Origin: the human T2T-CHM13v2.0 reference genome, Homo sapiens
Strand: one strand, 5' to 3'
DNA length: 64,000 bases
Assembly: GCF_009914755.1 (NCBI RefSeq)
Contig: NC_060945.1
Within the stretch, counting starts at the first letter, position 1, and each line of letters opens with the position of its first letter. Positions 44,193-64,000 of the stretch are shown in pieces. A model generated the notes under the pieces. The model saw nothing but the letters and a program-made list of their open reading frames with translations, was not told where the DNA came from and made no database searches. The position numbers and the translations under genes were made by a program.

Positions 44193-44483
44193 TGATCGCA
44201 CTTCAGCATCATTTATGTACTGCGGTAGTGCCCATGGAGGTTCCTGGACTGCATGTCTTGATTGGATGAGAAAAAAACCTCCAGGCTTACTCTGATTGGA
44301 CTTTATGATCATGTTCTGATTGGATGAGAGCAAGTCTTAACACAACCAATCACAGCATGAAAATAAAGTCCAATCAGAGTAGGCCTAGAGGTTTTTTTCT
44401 CATCCAATCAAGACATGCAGTCCAGGAACTGCATTTGCATAACCTCATATATAAAGGATGCTGAGGTGGCGTCAGGTCATTTC
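44193..44483. promoter_or_regulatory. Palindromic bidirectional promoter: 6 CCAAT boxes, octamer, TATA, Inr
   Basis: ATTGG at 44261, 44295, 44319 mirror CCAAT at 44404, 44370, 44346; ATTTGCAT 44433-44440; TATATAAA 44448-44455; Inr-like TCATTTC 44477-44483; minus-strand TACATAAA starting at 44219 and Inr-like TCACTTT with A at 44193. Confidence 0.8.
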
Positions 44484-44808
44484 AGACTCTTCTGTGTCGA
44501 GTGGAGGAGCAACTCTGTGCCCAGCTTAGAGGACTGGAAGAGGCCGCAATCTTCCGCCTGCTGGAGGGTGGAGGATGGATGGAGCCTGGAACCTGGGTCA
44601 CTACCTCGCTGCAGTTGGTGGTGGCGATAGAGCAGTAGGAGAGCATTCGGCAGCAGGAGCTTCTCCTGCTGGGCTGGAGGACTAGAAGGAAGAGGCACTG
44701 CCACATGCTGGAGGCTGGAACCTGTGCCACCATGGCTCGCCTCGCTGTGGTTGGTGGTGACATCGGAGACTGCAGCTCAGCCACAGTGGTAGAAATGTGA
44801 TGGTGTAG
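44479..44808 (+). ncRNA. Putative first exon (BAGE 5' leader-like) ending in a consensus donor AG/GTGAGT
   Basis: Predicted TSS about 30 nt after TATA; GAGCAACTCTGTGCCCAGCTTAGAGGAC resembles the recalled BAGE 5' UTR GAGCTGCTCTGTTCCCGGCTTAGAGGAC; donor GT at 44809. Confidence 0.55.
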
Positions 44809-44829
44809 GTGAGTTTTTCCGGGCCTGCC

Positions 44830-45400
44830 CTGTATGCCTCTGGGGTCAAGGGTTGGGTGTCCTATTGGGGTTCACTGCTAGAGGCTACCATGCCTGTGGC
44901 AGTGGTCTGGTTGGGGACACTCTCCGGGGTTGCATTGCTGGTGGTGGGGCAGGTTGCCTGGCTATCTGGGGCTATACTGCCTGTGGTGGCAGGGGTGGTG
45001 GGGGGAGGCAGATTGTGTACAATAGCTTGTATTGCTGGTGGCTGGGGAAGGATTAGGGGCGCTATTTTCTGCTGCACTGCCCGCAGCAGGGAGTGGGTTG
45101 GGTGGAGTTATCCAGGGCTACAATGCTGGCGGGGGGGTGGTTTAGGGGCGTTGTTGGGTGCTACACTGTGACTGGAGGGGTGCACCATTAGGAGCTGAAC
45201 TGCCTGTGGCTGGGTCAGATTGTGGGCACTATTGGGTGGTATGCTCCCTGAGGTGTGGGGGGAGTGTTTTTGTCAGGGGGTATTGGGGTTACATTGCCTG
45301 AAACTGTAGGGTGTGTTGGATGTGTTATCCAGGAGCTACACTGCTAGTGGCAGGGGGCAGATTAGGGGTGCCATGGGGACTACACTGCCAGTGGCATTGG
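44830..45400 (+). repeat. G-rich degenerate tandem array (about 45-50 bp units, GGGGCTACACTGCC..GTGG core)
   Basis: Recurring GCTACACTG/GCTATACTG/GTTACATTG anchors with G3-G7 runs. Confidence 0.8.
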
Positions 45401-45985
45401 CGAGCTGGTGAGGTGGCAGCAGCAGTGACAGCAGTGGCTTCCTTCTTCTCGTAGCTTCCAAGTAAGGTATCGTTTTCTTCTTCTCAGACTCCAGACTCTA
45501 GAAGGCGATTTTCTTCTGCTCGAGCTGGATTGCATGGTAGGGCCTCCACACCCACTGTGGTTTCCCAGCCTGCCCTCATGCTTTGTGTTGCGAAGATCAC
45601 GTGGGACTACCGGGCAGGGAGTAGTAGGCACCATGGGGGAAGTGGGAAACAGGGCACTGTTGGTGGAGGTGTCAGGAATGGGAACCAGCCCTTTGGTGGG
45701 GAGGGCTGGCTGGGTCTTAGTTTCTCCTACGCAGGCTCCCGGAGGAGGACAGCCTTGGTGGGCCCAGCAATTCCTGGCCAGGTGTACTTGGCCAAGGGCC
45801 TGTTTCAGTGAAGGCACTCACTCCCACCCCAGGCCCCAGTTCCTGGCCAGCTTTTGCCAGAAGGAGAGGTTGGACTTTGGAAGGTGGGTGTGAGTGCCTT
45901 CAATGAAACTGATCCCTGACACCCAGTCACCAGCCTAACGAGGTGAGGCTCTAATGGTTCCAATCCCTGAGTCCTGTTTTGGGCT

Positions 45986-46054
45986 TTTCTGGCTTTGCCT
46001 GCCCAGCTGCTCCAAGCCACTCTGAAGAAGGAGAAGGAGGAGTCGCCTGTGGTA
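45986..46054 (+). pseudogene. BAGE-like coding remnant without a start codon
   Basis: Translates [23 protein letters not shown] versus recalled BAGE1 [21 protein letters not shown]; in-frame TGA at 45968 and no ATG between it and the match. Confidence 0.75.
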
Positions 46055-60974: not shown

Positions 60975-61606
60975 TTTTTCTTTTATTTTTTGGGTCAGAG
61001 TTTCATTGTATCACTCAGGCTGGAGTGCAGTGGCACAATCACGGCTCACTGCAGTCTTGACCTCCTGGGCTCAAGTGATCCTCCTGCCTCAGCCTCCCAG
61101 GTAGCTGGGACCATGGGTGTGTACTGTATGCCTGACTAATTATTTTTTCTTTTTCTTTTTTTTTTTTTTTTGAGACAGAGTCTCGCTCTGTCACCCAGGC
61201 TGGAGTGCAGTGGTCCGATCTCGGCTCACTGCAAGCTCCGCCTCCTGGGTTCACGCCATTCTCCTGCCTCAGTCTCCCGAGTAGCTGGGACTACAGGTGC
61301 CCACCACCACGCCCGGCTACTTTTTCGTATTTTTAATAGAGACAGAGTTTCACCGTGTTAGCCAGGATGGTCTCGATCTCGTGACCTCACGATCCGCCCG
61401 CCTCGGCCTCCAAAAGTGCTGGGATTACAGGTGTGAGCCACCGCACCTGGCCGCCTAACTAATTATTATTATTATTTTAATTTTCTTGTAGAGATAGTTC
61501 TGGCTTCATTGCCCATTCTGGTCCTGAATACCTGGCCTTAGGAGATCCTCCTATCTTGACTTCCCAAAATGCTGGGATTACAGGTGTGAGCCACTGTGGC
61601 CAGCCT
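60975..61606 (-). mobile_element. AluJ split by a nested AluY (about 61144-61452)
   Basis: J right arm before and J left arm after; TSD GCCTGACTAATTATT/GCCTAACTAATTATT. Confidence 0.9.
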
Positions 61607-62501
61607 ATAAGTTTTGTTTTAAAGTTAGATTGAATGACAATTCCCTAGAAAATTTTATTTTCTAAACCTAACTAACTGGATAAAGAATATATTGATAAAA
61701 ACTGGGAAATTGATCAATTTGTCATACTGAATTATTTTTTGAATTTGCCCTCTTCCCAAATACCTTGAAATGATGGAAACAAAATTAAAACTTTACTAAT
61801 AAAGTATTAAATGGGTGAAGATTTTATATATATAAAATTATATCTGTTATATTTTTATGTATGCAATTATATAGTTTTCATCTTATATTTAAATTCTATT
61901 TTTTTAAAACCACCCAATTAGGTAATAATAGAACTCCGGTCTTAAAGTAAGAGTGTATGTACACACATGCACATGTGTATATGTGTATATAAAATTTTTG
62001 TCATGGGAGTTTTATATATAATTAAGATAGAAATTATATATTATTGCACACATTTTTACACATATGTAATATTCTCTACCATATGTATGTAAAATACACC
62101 CATATGAATTATGTATAACATAAATATTTGTGTTATCCTGAAACATAAACGTAGATAATCATGTTTTAGAATGGGAATACTCAGGAGTATAGGGGTACCT
62201 GTTCTCCCATTAGTCAGTCTGTGAATTCAATATTTATGTTTTCTCATCCAGAATTTCTCTGGGACCTGACAAGCTGACTCTCATGCTTGTGTGTAAGAGG
62301 AAATGTTCTAGAATAGCTGGGAAGGTGGTGAAAGTAGCAGCAACAACGAAGCACAGTGAGGTGAAACTTGCCCTGCTGGATATGAAACCTCGTAATACTA
62401 GAGTAATTTGAAAAGTGTGGCATTGGCACAGGAAAAGACAGACAAATCAAATTAGTCTAGAATTGTGGACAAGTAGGAATAGAGTTTATAATGAGGATGG
62501 C

Positions 62502-62815
62502 TTTCTTTTTCTTTCTTTCTTTTTTTTTTTTTTTGAGATGAAGTCTCACTCTGTTTCCCCAGCTGGTGTGCAATGGTGTGATCTCGGCTCACTGCAACTG
62601 CCACCTCCCAGGCTCAAGCAATTCTCCTGCCTCAGCCTCCCAAGTAGCTGGGATTACTGGCGCATGTCACCATGCCCGGTTAATTTTTGTATTTTTAGTA
62701 GAAAAGAAGTTTCACCATGTTGGCCAGGCTGGCCTCGAACTCCCGACCTCAAGTGATCTTCCCGTCTCAGCATCCCAGAGTGCTGGGATTACAGGAGGAG
62801 CCACCGCTCCTGGCC
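62502..62815 (-). mobile_element. AluS
   Basis: Full antisense dimer. Confidence 0.93.
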
Positions 62816-63364
62816 TTTTTTTTCTTTATTTGCTATTTCAGTTCCATAGAAGCAAGCAAAGAGTAACATAACAAATATCCATCTACCTACCATCTGTGAT
62901 TACAAAACTTAGTATTTTATCATCCTTGCTTCACAATTATTTAATAAAGACAATACTTCCTCTGCACAAATGCTTACCTTAAAACTACTCTTGAATTCTT
63001 TTCACAATTGACTTATCAACTCCCAAATTTAAAACCATGTATTTTTGTCTTTATATGCCTTAGACATTTATAGAAAGGTATTTACTGAGCAGTTACTATG
63101 TGCCAGATATTATGCTGTTTTTATATACTGTTTTTACTTTATATAGCTAATTATATTATTTGTCACATACTAACCTATTTTAAATATAAAAAGAAATGAT
63201 GCATTAATGTTTTCAAACCTTGGTAACTTTTATTAAGTAAATACCTGAGAGGAAGCTTTTCCTGGTAATTGTGGTTTTATTTATGTATCTATAGTTATAA
63301 TTTATTAGAAGTACACTTGGTGTTTTAGTTCTTATTAATTCTATTTTTTTCCCATCCTGTTTAG

Positions 63365-63542
63365 ATGGTTTCCTAGAAACATGATTGTTTATTGGCGTTG
63401 ATCTCGCAGTCTGGTGAGAACTTCTTTACTGATAATGTCAAGTTCAGTTTATCCTCCCAACCAAGGAGCATTCAGCACAGAACAAAGTCGTTCTCCTCCT
63501 CACTCTGTAAAGTATACGTTTCCCAGCACCCACCACCAGCAG
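63365..63542 (+). pseudogene. NCOR1P: Unprocessed NCOR1 paralog/pseudogene (NCOR1P family; copy not identifiable), first coding exon; ATG at 63435
   Basis: Polypyrimidine tract and TTTAG acceptor, 70-nt leader, 36 open codons MSSSVYPPNQGAFSTEQSRSPPHSVKYTFPSTHHQQ (31/36 identical to the recalled NCOR1 N-terminus MSSSGYPPNQGAFSTEQSRYPPHSVQYTFPNTRHQQ), donor CAG/GTAAGG. Confidence 0.93.
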
Positions 63543-64000
63543 GTAAGGAACAAATGCTATGCAAATTGCACGTTTTTTTGTTTTTCTTTACTTTTCCTAT
63601 TTAATACACATGTTGGTAGAAACCACCAAATTTGCCTTTTTTTTTAAGTGGCAAGAGCTATTTACAAAGACAAGGAACCAAAGGTTGGGAATTAATTATT
63701 TCTGTCTTCTTACTGTGGCTTTATGCCGATTTCAGGAGTTGAACTTGTCTTTGTTTTGATGACAGGAGTTGATGATAAATAGAAAACTTATCAATTCTCT
63801 AGAATTTCTAGGGTAAGACCTATATTTATACTCCCAAGTTGTGGTTGAGTTTTAAGCTGGCTAGATAACTTGGCATGTCTTGAGTGATGGCCAGGATAAA
63901 GACCTCTGTCTTCTTGAGAGATTGATGGTAGGAAGATTTGCATAGTAGGTAGGAAGGAAGGAAGGGATGGTAGATAGGAAGGAAGACTTTATTATAGGAA

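What the first reader, a model, noticed from the sequence alone, without database searches (positions are those of the whole stretch)
44479..63548. Candidate promoter-swap chimeric gene: REP522/BAGE-like exon 1 spliced to the NCOR1 first coding exon
Seen: TATA/Inr-defined exon 44479-44808 with a consensus AG/GTGAGT donor; 18.6 kb downstream on the same strand an NCOR1 exon with intact acceptor, ATG, 36 open codons and donor; no recognisable NCOR1 exon 1 or CpG island in between. Known: BAGE genes arose by joining a related first exon to duplicated KMT2C/MLL3 exons; the NCOR1 N-terminal region lies in repression domain 1. Inference: the same promoter cassette captured a second chromatin-regulator fragment, suggesting a general gene-birth system in pericentromeric duplications. 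The product could be a lncRNA, a short NCOR1-like protein or a cancer-testis-type antigen. Downstream exons lie outside the window.
Basis: partly seen in the sequence, partly recalled or inferred. Interest (0 to 1): 0.85.

Follow-up and report, generated by a model that had tools for sequence, protein, structure and literature searches.

The report
Borrowed promoter upstream of NCOR1 pseudogene
A promoter-less, decayed copy of the start of the NCOR1 gene sits behind a small palindromic two-way promoter that is copied around human centromeres and also heads the BAGE and some POTE genes; the pair most likely makes a non-coding RNA, not a new protein.

Summary
The 44.2-44.8 kb element is one copy of a dispersed palindromic CCAAT/TATA promoter. 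It is about 73% identical to the BAGE/BAGE2 5' ends. RefSeq 5' ends of POTEE, BAGE and several lncRNAs map onto window 44474-44479.

An NCOR1 fragment is fused 3.9 kb downstream, at 48735-48737. It holds part of intron 1, exon 2 and later pieces, but not exon 1 or the parental CpG island. All seven NCOR1P copies have the element 18.6-21 kb upstream, and the five examined share this junction, so it is one old fusion (4-5% divergence from NCOR1).

No RNA data were available, so the proposed splice is untested. Indirect evidence favours cassette-driven transcription. On the 99.7%-identical chr14 copy a RefSeq lncRNA starts at the cassette start site and ends 4 nt from the NCOR1P4 RNA end. The annotated chr21 first exon looks like a 5'-truncated Alu exon.

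Coding is unlikely. There are eight upstream ATGs, a CGA>TGA stop that leaves an 80-aa ORF, and neutral-looking substitutions.

As a general promoter donor the element holds up: 22 of 40 paralogous palindromes carry outward RefSeq gene starts, against 0-1 of 40 at shifted controls.

Verdict: a new member of the BAGE-type chimeric class, of moderate interest.

The parts
42900..44015 (.). Degenerate C/T-rich repeats of roughly 80 b that flank the left arm of the palindrome. BAGE 5' flanks match this region too.
   Evidence: Direct-repeat families D1-D5. Multiple BAGE/BAGE2 matches at 43080-43910.
44183..44183 (-). Mirror-image start site on the left arm. It is not annotated on chr21.
   Evidence: The RefSeq 5' ends of UBBP4 and CCDC144NL-AS1 both map to window 44183 on the minus strand. 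A CATAAAT box lies about 30 b upstream on that strand.
44240..44429 (.). Core palindrome: two 87-nt arms, 92% complementary, with a 16-nt spacer. Each arm carries CCAAT boxes (right arm at 44346, 44370 and 44404).
   Evidence: Inverted repeat I1. Sequence. The boxes are kept in nearly all of the 18 aligned copies, including BAGE and POTEE/F; two copies each have one altered box.
44450..44456 (+). TATA box (TATAAAG), 24-29 b upstream of the mapped start sites.
   Evidence: Present in 13 of 18 aligned copies. Absent from chr20_P1, BAGE and BAGE2, and degenerate in POTEE/F.
44474..44808 (+). Candidate non-coding first exon, starting at 44474 or 44479. It holds six ATGs and short upstream ORFs.
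   Evidence: 5' ends of the chr14 and chr13 lncRNAs map to 44474, BAGE to 44475, and LOC101930665, POTEE and LOC497256 to 44479. Upstream ATGs.
44809..44814 (+). Donor GTGAGT after TAG. Use of this donor is not shown for any copy.
   Evidence: GTAG|GTGAG is kept in 15 of 18 aligned copies (POTEE has GTCAG, BAGE GTGCG, BAGE2 GTGTG). BAGE2's annotated exon-1 donor lies elsewhere.
44815..48737 (+). Cassette flank duplicon. It is shared with cassette copies that carry no NCOR1 piece.
   Evidence: 91-95% identical to chr17 at 20.81, 23.25 and 28.03 Mb, and 82% to chr9 at 106.72 Mb. All 3 non-NCOR1 copies tested stop at 48737.
45983..46078 (+). Relic homologue of BAGE coding exon 2, without splice sites (TGG where BAGE2 has the TAG acceptor, GC where it has the GT donor).
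   Evidence: Pairwise alignment with BAGE2 exon 2.
48735..48737 (.). Fusion junction between the cassette duplicon and the NCOR1 intron-1 sequence, at the edge of an Alu.
   Evidence: Parent homology starts at 48735 and non-NCOR1 copies end at 48737. All 4 other NCOR1P copies tested (chr7, chr17 at 22.75 Mb, chr20, chr17 at 21.56 Mb) run colinearly across it.
48735..64000 (+). NCOR1-derived piece A: distal intron 1, exon 2 and the start of intron 2. It continues to 65614, beyond the window.
   Evidence: Colinear with chr17:16112538-16094694 at 91-94%.
57531..57651 (+). Antisense-Alu exon. RefSeq exon 1 of NR_135512.1 is 57573-57651. The probable full exon would start after the T-run/GAG acceptor at 57530.
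   Evidence: Annotation. Sequence: no AG directly before 57573, a run of 21 T then GAG|A at 57530, and donor CAG|GTGTGT at 57651. The same Alu is present in the parental intron. The full extent is an inference.
63365..63542 (+). NCOR1 exon-2 homologue (RefSeq exon 2 of NCOR1P4), with the ATG at 63435 and 36 open codons.
   Evidence: Acceptor AG and donor GTAAGG are kept in 8 of 8 copies. The ORF is open in 7 of 8 (the chr7 copy has a stop).

Best explanation
The region is a fusion of two duplicated segments.

The first is a small palindromic, two-way CCAAT/TATA promoter module with its flank (window about 44.2-48.7 kb). This module is scattered through pericentromeric and acrocentric duplications. 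In RefSeq it marks the 5' end of BAGE, POTEE/F and many lncRNAs and transcribed pseudogenes.

The second is a promoter-less piece of NCOR1 (distal intron 1, exon 2, then later pieces). It became joined to the module once, about 20 million years ago (inferred), probably on chromosome 17. The composite was then copied to chr7, chr20, a second chr17 site and the short arms of chr13, 14 and 21.

I infer that the right arm of the palindrome supplies the promoter and a non-coding first exon (44474/44479-44808). The RNA would then be spliced across about 18.6 kb, with or without an exonised Alu (about 57531-57651), to the NCOR1 exon-2 homologue (63365-63542) and to further NCOR1-derived exons beyond the window.

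The product is most likely a long non-coding RNA of the transcribed-pseudogene kind. By analogy with BAGE and POTE it would be silent in methylated somatic heterochromatin and active in germ line, early embryo or hypomethylated tumours.

Shown here: the structure, the homologies, the single junction, and the annotated starts at paralogues. Inferred: that this copy fires, which acceptor its donor uses, and its expression pattern.
For: - Sequence features are as stated.
- Cassette family: about 40 paralogues. In an 18-copy alignment the CCAAT boxes are kept in nearly all copies, and the initiator and the GTAG|GTGAG donor in most.
- RefSeq 5' ends map to window 44474-44479 for 6 genes, including POTEE and BAGE. 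Left-arm starts of UBBP4 and CCDC144NL-AS1 map to 44183 on the minus strand.
- 22 of 40 palindromes have an outward RefSeq gene start 40-400 b from the centre, against 0-1 of 40 at six shifted controls.
- The junction at 48735-48737 is shared by 4 of 4 other NCOR1P copies tested, and is where 3 of 3 non-NCOR1 copies end.
- All seven NCOR1 exon-2 duplicates have the cassette 18.6-21 kb upstream on the same strand.
- The chr14 copy (99.7% identical over 29.8 kb) carries lncRNA LOC105379562. It runs from the cassette start site to a 3' end that maps to window 73828, against 73832 for NR_135512.1.
- The chr13 and chr17 (21.56 Mb) copies carry lncRNAs from the same start that span the unit.
- RefSeq exon 1 on chr21 starts inside an antisense Alu without an acceptor or promoter motif. 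It has a classic Alu acceptor 43 b upstream, which suggests a 5'-truncated cDNA.
- Non-coding status: eight ATGs precede the NCOR1 ATG in the hypothetical RNA and the ORF is 80 aa. There is a CGA>TGA change relative to the parent. Substitutions against the parent are 9 replacement (including the stop) to 5 silent over about 97 codons.
- Literature, passages only: the BAGE locus contains a large REP522 region that is H3K9me3-marked in liver and activated in a heterologous setting (PMC3560060). REP522 is enriched more than 2-fold in lncRNA exons (10.1101/189753). REP522 RNA rises at the 8-cell stage (PMC6545021). BAGE loci are methylated in normal tissue and hypomethylated in cancers (PMC3757347, PMC3084872).
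Against:
- The only exon-level annotation for this copy (NR_135512.1) starts at 57573, not at the cassette.
- No CAGE cluster, promoter or other functional element is annotated within 20 kb of the window.
- For chr13, chr14 and chr17 only gene spans were visible, not exons. A gene span can be a union of isoforms.
- BAGE2, the only family member with visible exons, does not use the donor homologous to 44808.
- The chr20 NCOR1P1 copy has lost the TATA box. RefSeq NCOR1P1, P2 and P3 spans do not reach their cassettes.
- The cassette exon is CpG-poor (observed/expected 0.34), so methylation control is an analogy and not shown.
Confidence: 0.6

Rival explanations
1. The RefSeq model is complete as drawn. 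NCOR1P4 RNA starts at or just upstream of the Alu at about 57.5 kb, from a cryptic or Alu-associated promoter inside former NCOR1 intron 1. The cassette 13 kb upstream is silent or makes unrelated RNAs, so the juxtaposition has no transcriptional meaning for this copy.
For: NR_135512.1 exon 1 is 57573-57651. RefSeq spans of NCOR1P1, P2 and P3 do not reach their cassettes. No functional element is annotated at the cassette on chr21. The chr20 copy lacks the TATA box yet is annotated as transcribed.
Against: 57573 has no promoter motif and lies inside an Alu exon, with a run of 21 T then a GAG acceptor 43 b upstream. The near-identical chr14 copy has a gene model from the cassette start to the same 3' end, 4 nt apart. 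The chr13 and chr17 copies likewise carry models from the cassette start that span the unit.
Confidence: 0.22
2. The cassette fires, but its RNA does not use the NCOR1 exons. It ends or splices within the 44.8-48.7 kb flank or elsewhere, as in cassette copies that have no NCOR1 piece. The paralogous lncRNA spans are unions of separate isoforms.
For: The flank is shared with loci where other genes use it (the CCDC144NL 3' end lies just beyond its flank copy). Only gene spans, not exons, were visible for chr13, chr14 and chr17.
Against: The BAGE-type exon 2 in the flank has lost both splice sites here. NCOR1 exon-2 splice sites are intact in 8 of 8 copies. The chr14 gene ends where NR_135512.1 ends.
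Confidence: 0.12
3. A new protein-coding or antigen-coding gene. The chimeric mRNA would be translated into a short NCOR1 N-terminal peptide, acting as a dominant-negative fragment or a cancer-testis antigen.
For: The ATG has a good context (A at -3) and 36 + 44 codons are in frame across the RefSeq splice. Residues 41-80 match the first 40 of 92 positions of Pfam PF15784, the GPS2-interacting domain (E 7e-9). The exon-2 ORF is open in 7 of 8 copies.
Against: Eight upstream ATGs precede the NCOR1 ATG. A parental CGA is TGA on chr21, and the domain is cut at 40 of 92 positions. The chr7 copy has a stop in exon 2. Substitutions are 9 replacement to 5 silent. No named human protein of 44-140 aa matches the ORF: the search returned 2 hits, both N-terminal NCOR1 fragments from macaque and beaver, and 14 unnamed candidates were left out by the tool.
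Confidence: 0.04

Closest known systems
BAGE / BAGE2 (B melanoma antigen family, juxtacentromeric chimeric genes)
   Same: The 5' flank, CCAAT boxes, start site and early exon are homologous (73-74% identity; the BAGE start aligns to window 44475). The downstream exons come from a duplicated fragment of an unrelated chromatin gene: the BAGE2 702-b exon is 98% identical to KMT2C (PMC4041455 passage citing Ruault 2003). Both lie in heterochromatin next to centromeres.
   Different: BAGE lacks the TATA box. It carries a BAGE-specific insertion that holds its ATG and its exon-1 donor. Its coding exon 2 has splice sites that are absent here. The captured fragment here is NCOR1, not KMT2C. No BAGE ORF is present.
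NCOR1P1, NCOR1P2, NCOR1P3 and the unnamed copies on chr13, chr14 and chr17 (21.58 Mb)
   Same: They share the same two NCOR1 pieces, and the five copies examined (this one and four others) share the cassette junction. The cassette lies 18.6-21 kb upstream on the same strand.
   Different: K2P distance between lineages is 3-4%. The chr13 and chr14 copies are 0.1-0.2% from chr21. The chr7 copy has a stop in exon 2, and the chr20 copy has lost the TATA box.
POTEE / POTEF 5' ends
   Same: The RefSeq start of POTEE maps to window 44479. 1.8 kb of its 5' region is colinear with window 44275-45986 at 74%. These are cancer-testis-type genes in duplications.
   Different: POTE genes are protein-coding, with the coding start further downstream (none in the first 1.7 kb). 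POTED on chr21 has no cassette homology.
Divergent partners CCDC144NL-AS1, UBBP4, MED15P9 and LOC642929 (left-arm transcripts)
   Same: They start on the mirror arm of paralogous palindromes. UBBP4 and CCDC144NL-AS1 both map to window 44183 on the minus strand.
   Different: No left-arm gene is annotated on chr21.
Alu exonisation (antisense Alu exons)
   Same: RefSeq exon 1 lies in an antisense Alu, with a poly-T/AG acceptor and a CAG|GT donor. That these are the usual Alu-exon sites is recalled knowledge.
   Different: Here the annotated exon begins 43 b inside the putative exon, so it is read as a truncated 5' end. This is an inference.

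Membership tests
BAGE-type juxtacentromeric chimeric gene | Promoter and first exon homologous to the BAGE 5' region | tested here: met
   73-74% identity over about 750 b. The BAGE start aligns to window 44475.
BAGE-type juxtacentromeric chimeric gene | Downstream exons derived from a duplicated, promoter-less fragment of an unrelated gene | tested here: met
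   The NCOR1 pieces start 5.3 kb downstream of the parental gene start and exclude exon 1 and the CpG island. For BAGE2, the downstream exon is 98% identical to KMT2C.
BAGE-type juxtacentromeric chimeric gene | An RNA that joins the cassette exon to the captured exons | tested here: inconclusive
   Only indirect evidence: the gene spans of paralogous lncRNAs, and the chr14 3' end 4 nt from the NR_135512.1 end. The chr21 RefSeq RNA starts at 57573. No RNA data were available.
BAGE gene proper | BAGE open reading frame (ATG at the end of exon 1, coding exon 2) | tested here: not met
   The BAGE-specific insertion holding the ATG and donor is absent. The exon-2 homologue lacks its acceptor and donor.
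BAGE-type juxtacentromeric chimeric gene | Cancer/testis-restricted, methylation-controlled expression | not testable with these tools
   No expression or methylation data were available. Only literature on BAGE, POTE and REP522 was seen (PMC3757347, PMC3084872, PMC3560060, PMC6545021, passages).
NCOR1 duplicated (unprocessed) pseudogene family | Intron-containing genomic homology to NCOR1 | tested here: met
   Window 48735-65614 equals chr17:16112538-16094694, and about 68281-77345 equals chr17:16072712-16063608.
NCOR1 duplicated (unprocessed) pseudogene family | Disabled as a copy of the parent | tested here: met
   No exon 1 or promoter. About 22 kb of the parent is missing between the pieces, and the coding segment that follows exon 2 in NCOR1 is absent from the RefSeq-spliced ORF. 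CGA>TGA in the next retained exon.
NCOR1 duplicated (unprocessed) pseudogene family | Common origin with NCOR1P1-3 | tested here: met
   The same junction is crossed colinearly in 4 of 4 copies tested.
REP522 repeat (RepeatMasker/Repbase name) | Match to the REP522 consensus | not testable with these tools
   No repeat library was available. The masked-repeat track has no interval of 100 b or more between 42680 and 48701. The only indirect link is homology to BAGE, whose locus is said to contain a large REP522 region (PMC3560060 passage).
Bidirectional promoter | Two divergent start sites within 1 kb | tested here: met
   By homology: paralogue 5' ends map to 44183 (minus) and 44474-44479 (plus), 291-296 b apart. 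6 of 40 paralogues have annotated genes on both arms.
Bidirectional promoter | Activity of this particular copy | not testable with these tools
   No RNA, CAGE or chromatin data were available, and no functional element is annotated here.

The most novel reading that the evidence does not exclude
The palindromic CCAAT/TATA module is a portable, epigenetically gated two-way promoter. It turns whatever duplicated fragment lands beside it into a germline, embryo or tumour transcript. In the NCOR1P family, copies without the chr21 stop (for example chr20 and chr17) would yield a short N-terminal NCOR1 peptide. That peptide would carry part or all of the GPS2/TBL1-binding coil and could interfere with corepressor assembly or serve as a tumour antigen.
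Probability: 0.06. Interest if true: 0.7.

Novelty: new member of a known kind. Interest (0 to 1): 0.4.

Why it matters
If cassette-driven, the NCOR1P loci are a second clear case, after BAGE/KMT2C, of one promoter module capturing a fragment of a chromatin regulator in pericentromeric duplications.

The wider count suggests one small palindrome seeds much of the transcription in these regions. 22 of 40 paralogous palindromes carry outward RefSeq gene starts, among them POTEE/F, AP1B1P1, MED15P9, UBBP4 and CCDC144NL-AS1. That would give a concrete element for studies of how segmental duplications create new transcripts. It would also give a shared regulatory handle for a set of cancer-testis-type RNAs.

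For NCOR1 itself the practical point is mapping. Seven near-copies of its first coding exon (94-100% identical among the listed matches) can confound variant calling.

The NCOR1-like product on chr21 looks non-coding, so the biological weight of this single locus is modest.

Tried and rejected
- **Rfam.** A scan of 42000-64000 at gathering thresholds gave no family.
- **ORFs.** The listing for 43000-49000 gave only low-complexity frames through the C/T-rich repeats and the cassette. None was pursued.
- **Protein word search.** The 80-aa ORF returned only two N-terminal NCOR1 fragments (macaque and beaver) and no human chimeric entry. The tool left out 14 unnamed candidates, and the length window is 44-140 aa, so this blank is weak.
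- **Literature.**
  - No paper holds LOC101930665, LOC105379562, LOC124907023 or NR_135512.
  - The 13 papers naming NCOR1P1-4 are gene lists, judged from the listing and abstract starts only.
  - 14 papers mention REP522. In the passages I read in five of them, none describes it as a shared promoter (PMC8524813 had no occurrence in its main text).
  - Three further searches for a described shared BAGE/POTE promoter found nothing relevant. 'pote' as a word start also matches 'potential', so two of these were poor.
  - The acrocentric-evolution preprint does not mention NCOR1 or FAM182.
  - Ruault 2002 and 2003 were seen only as cited references, not read.
  - Supplementary files were not consulted and may hold expression tables for NCOR1P genes.
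- **POTED.** I considered it as an exon-level test of donor use, but it has no cassette homology.
- **Splice scoring.** I did not score splice sites with a trained model because none was available. Matches to consensus are described by eye.
- **Retrocopy search.** A genome search for a processed retrocopy carrying the predicted exon-exon junction was not run, because it would need a joined sequence to be typed.
- **FastTree.** The tree of 7 copies did not resolve the branching order (supports 0.40 and 0.84). Common origin therefore rests on the shared junction.

Full report
**The observation**

- TATAAAG lies at 44450-44456 and CA initiators at 44474 and 44479. A G+C-rich stretch runs to 44808 and is followed by TAG|GTGAGT.
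- At 63365 a pyrimidine-rich acceptor (tgtttag|ATGG) opens a 178-b exon. Its ATG is at 63435, 36 codons are open to 63542, and the donor is CAG|GTAAGG.
- RefSeq annotates 63365-63542 as exon 2 of the transcribed pseudogene NCOR1P4 (NR_135512.1). Exon 1 is 57573-57651 and a third exon lies at window-equivalent 73537-73832.

**The cassette**

A 651-b query around the candidate exon finds about 40 paralogous places in this genome. Only 40 of 101 candidates were scored and closed regions are not shown, so counts are lower bounds.

The core is a palindrome with arms 44240-44326 and 44343-44429, 92% complementary. The homology itself folds back over about 240 b.

I aligned 18 copies.
- Three CCAAT boxes per arm and the TCATTTC initiator are kept in nearly all copies.
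- The donor GTAG|GTGAG is kept in 15 of 18. POTEE has GTCAG, BAGE GTGCG and BAGE2 GTGTG.
- The TATA box is present in 13 of 18. It is absent from chr20_P1, BAGE and BAGE2, and degenerate in POTEE/F.

RefSeq gene 5' ends map onto this alignment as follows.

| Gene | Maps to window |
|---|---|
| lncRNAs on the chr14 and chr13 twins | 44474 |
| BAGE | 44475 |
| LOC101930665, POTEE, LOC497256 | 44479 |
| POTEF | 44423 |
| a chr15 lncRNA | 44410 |
| BAGE2 | 44447 |

On the mirror arm, the 5' ends of UBBP4 and CCDC144NL-AS1 both map to 44183 on the minus strand.

I then counted all 40 primary loci. 22 have a RefSeq gene start 40-400 b from the palindrome centre that points outward: 15 on the right arm, 13 on the left and 6 on both. 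At centres shifted by plus or minus 5, 10 or 20 kb the count was 0-1 of 40. By annotation, then, the element is a dispersed two-way promoter.

**Relation to BAGE**

BAGE (chr13) and BAGE2 (chr21) 5' regions align to window 43780-45125 at about 73%. A BAGE2 downstream exon is 98% identical to KMT2C. This matches a passage in PMC4041455 that cites Ruault 2003.

Three differences stand out.
- BAGE carries an insertion that holds its ATG and its exon-1 donor (aligned near 44594, not 44808).
- The homologue of BAGE coding exon 2 at about 45983-46078 has TGG where the acceptor should be and GC where the donor should be.
- The name REP522 could not be checked. The masked-repeat track has nothing of 100 b or more from 42680 to 48701. 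The only link is a passage stating that the BAGE locus contains a large REP522 region (PMC3560060).

**The NCOR1 part**

Megablast against 40 kb of the parent shows one colinear block. Window 48735-65614 equals chr17:16112538-16094694 at 91-94%.
- It starts 5.3 kb downstream of the NCOR1 gene start. Exon 1 and the parental CpG island (chr17:16116931-16119170) are therefore not included.
- A second block, about 68281-77345, equals chr17:16072712-16063608.
- About 22 kb of the parent is missing between the blocks.
- No Takai-Jones CpG island lies between 44808 and 63365. The only 200-b hit is an Alu.

The flank 45000-48738 is shared with cassette copies that have no NCOR1 piece. Three of 3 such copies end at 48737, and the parent begins at 48735, at the edge of an Alu. 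Four of 4 other NCOR1P copies tested run straight across.

Seven duplicates of the exon exist: chr21, chr14, chr13, chr17 at 21.58 Mb, chr17 NCOR1P2, chr7 NCOR1P3 and chr20 NCOR1P1. Each has the cassette 18.6-21 kb upstream on the same strand. This was one fusion event, later copied.

K2P distances over 2.3 kb of unique sequence are:

| Comparison | K2P distance |
|---|---|
| NCOR1P copies to the parent | 4.2-4.8% |
| Between NCOR1P lineages | 3-4% |
| The two chr17 copies | 1.3% |
| chr21 to chr14 | 0.09% |
| chr21 to chr13 (1.2 kb only) | 0.17% |

With a recalled rate of about 1.1e-9 per site per year, the fusion is roughly 20 My old. This date is an inference.

**Transcript evidence**

No RNA data were available.
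- On chr21, RefSeq exon 1 starts at 57573 inside an antisense Alu. No AG lies directly before it. A run of 21 T then GAG|A lies at 57530, and the donor CAG|GTGTGT at 57651. The Alu is also in the parental intron. I read this as a 5'-truncated cDNA inside an exonised Alu, which implies an upstream start.
- On the chr14 copy (99.67% identical over 29.8 kb), lncRNA LOC105379562 starts at the cassette start site. Its 3' end maps to window 73828, 4 nt from the NR_135512.1 end at 73832.
- The chr13 and chr17 (21.56 Mb) copies carry lncRNAs from the same start that run to about 77372 and about 76555.
- Only gene spans were visible for these chromosomes.

**Coding potential**

The RefSeq splice gives an 80-aa ORF: NCOR1 residues 1-36 joined in frame to 44 residues of a later exon.
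- The last 40 residues match positions 2-40 of the 92-position Pfam GPS2-interacting domain.
- The ORF ends at a TGA where the parent has CGA.
- The coding segment that follows exon 2 in NCOR1 (seen in the macaque and beaver fragments) is absent.
- Against the parent there are 9 replacement changes (including the stop) and 5 silent changes over about 97 codons.
- The chr7 copy has a stop in exon 2.
- A cassette-initiated RNA would carry eight ATGs before the NCOR1 ATG.
- No named human protein of 44-140 aa matches the ORF.

A non-coding RNA is the economical reading.

**Literature (passages only)**
- REP522 is enriched more than 2-fold in lncRNA exons (10.1101/189753).
- REP522 RNA rises at the 8-cell stage (PMC6545021) and is listed among repeats expressed in ES cells and lung tumours (PMC11353194).
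- BAGE loci are methylated in normal tissue and hypomethylated in cancers and in ICF cells. POTE is activated in ICF cells (PMC3757347, PMC3084872).
- The BAGE/REP522 region is H3K9me3-marked in human liver and active in a mouse background (PMC3560060).
- I found no paper on the structure of the NCOR1P loci or on a shared BAGE/POTE/NCOR1P promoter. The library lacks most subscription journals, and supplements were closed.

**Verdict**

The anatomy is real and its origin is clear. Promoter capture is structurally shown and is indirectly supported at RNA level. The specific junction is untested, and a protein product is unlikely.

The locus is a new member of the BAGE-type class of juxtacentromeric chimeric transcripts, and annotation already partly captures it. 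The more interesting point is how widely the palindromic module serves as a start site.

Noticed in passing
window 44183 (minus strand), left arm 44000-44334: A mirror-image promoter: a CATAAAT box and a start site to which the 5' ends of UBBP4 and CCDC144NL-AS1 map. No leftward gene is annotated on chr21, so an unannotated divergent RNA is possible.
   Followed up: partly
window 42900-44015: Degenerate C/T-rich repeats of about 80 b that produce long spurious ORFs (up to 369 aa). BAGE 5' flanks match here repeatedly. The region is not soft-masked.
   Followed up: partly
window 44300-48738 versus chr17:20812796-20817226: The chr21 cassette and flank are closer to the NCOR1-free copy at the CCDC144NL locus (95%) than to the cassettes of other NCOR1P copies (87-93%). 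This may reflect gene conversion or the source of the fusion partner. It is unexplained.
   Followed up: no
window 43357-64000 and beyond; chr13:12021000-12056000; chr14:7239251-7268999: The chr21, chr13 and chr14 copies are 99.5-99.7% identical over 30 kb or more. This is consistent with recent exchange among acrocentric short arms. RefSeq names the unit NCOR1P4 on chr21 but as anonymous lncRNAs on chr13 and chr14.
   Followed up: partly
window 63365: The first base of the exon is A here and in the chr14, chr13, chr7 and chr20 copies, where the parent has G. This creates an extra upstream ATG at the very start of the exon.
   Followed up: no
window-equivalent 65614-68281 (L007): An Alu-rich joint between the two NCOR1 pieces replaces about 22 kb of the parental gene. 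It looks like an Alu-mediated deletion and appears in the other copies that matched this stretch.
   Followed up: partly
L049 (chr21:11953300-11955400) versus L050 (chr2:131643300-131645000): POTEE and POTEF start in the cassette, but POTED on chr21 has no cassette homology at its 5' end. POTE family members therefore use unrelated promoters.
   Followed up: partly
window 42023-42679 and 61133-61498: The CpG-island-like windows in this part of the window coincide with masked Alu-sized repeats, not with promoters.
   Followed up: yes
chr20:25817970-25818535: There is an extra isolated fragment, 95% identical to the 3' part of the stretch around the NCOR1P third exon. It lies away from NCOR1P1, near the FAM182 region.
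   Followed up: no
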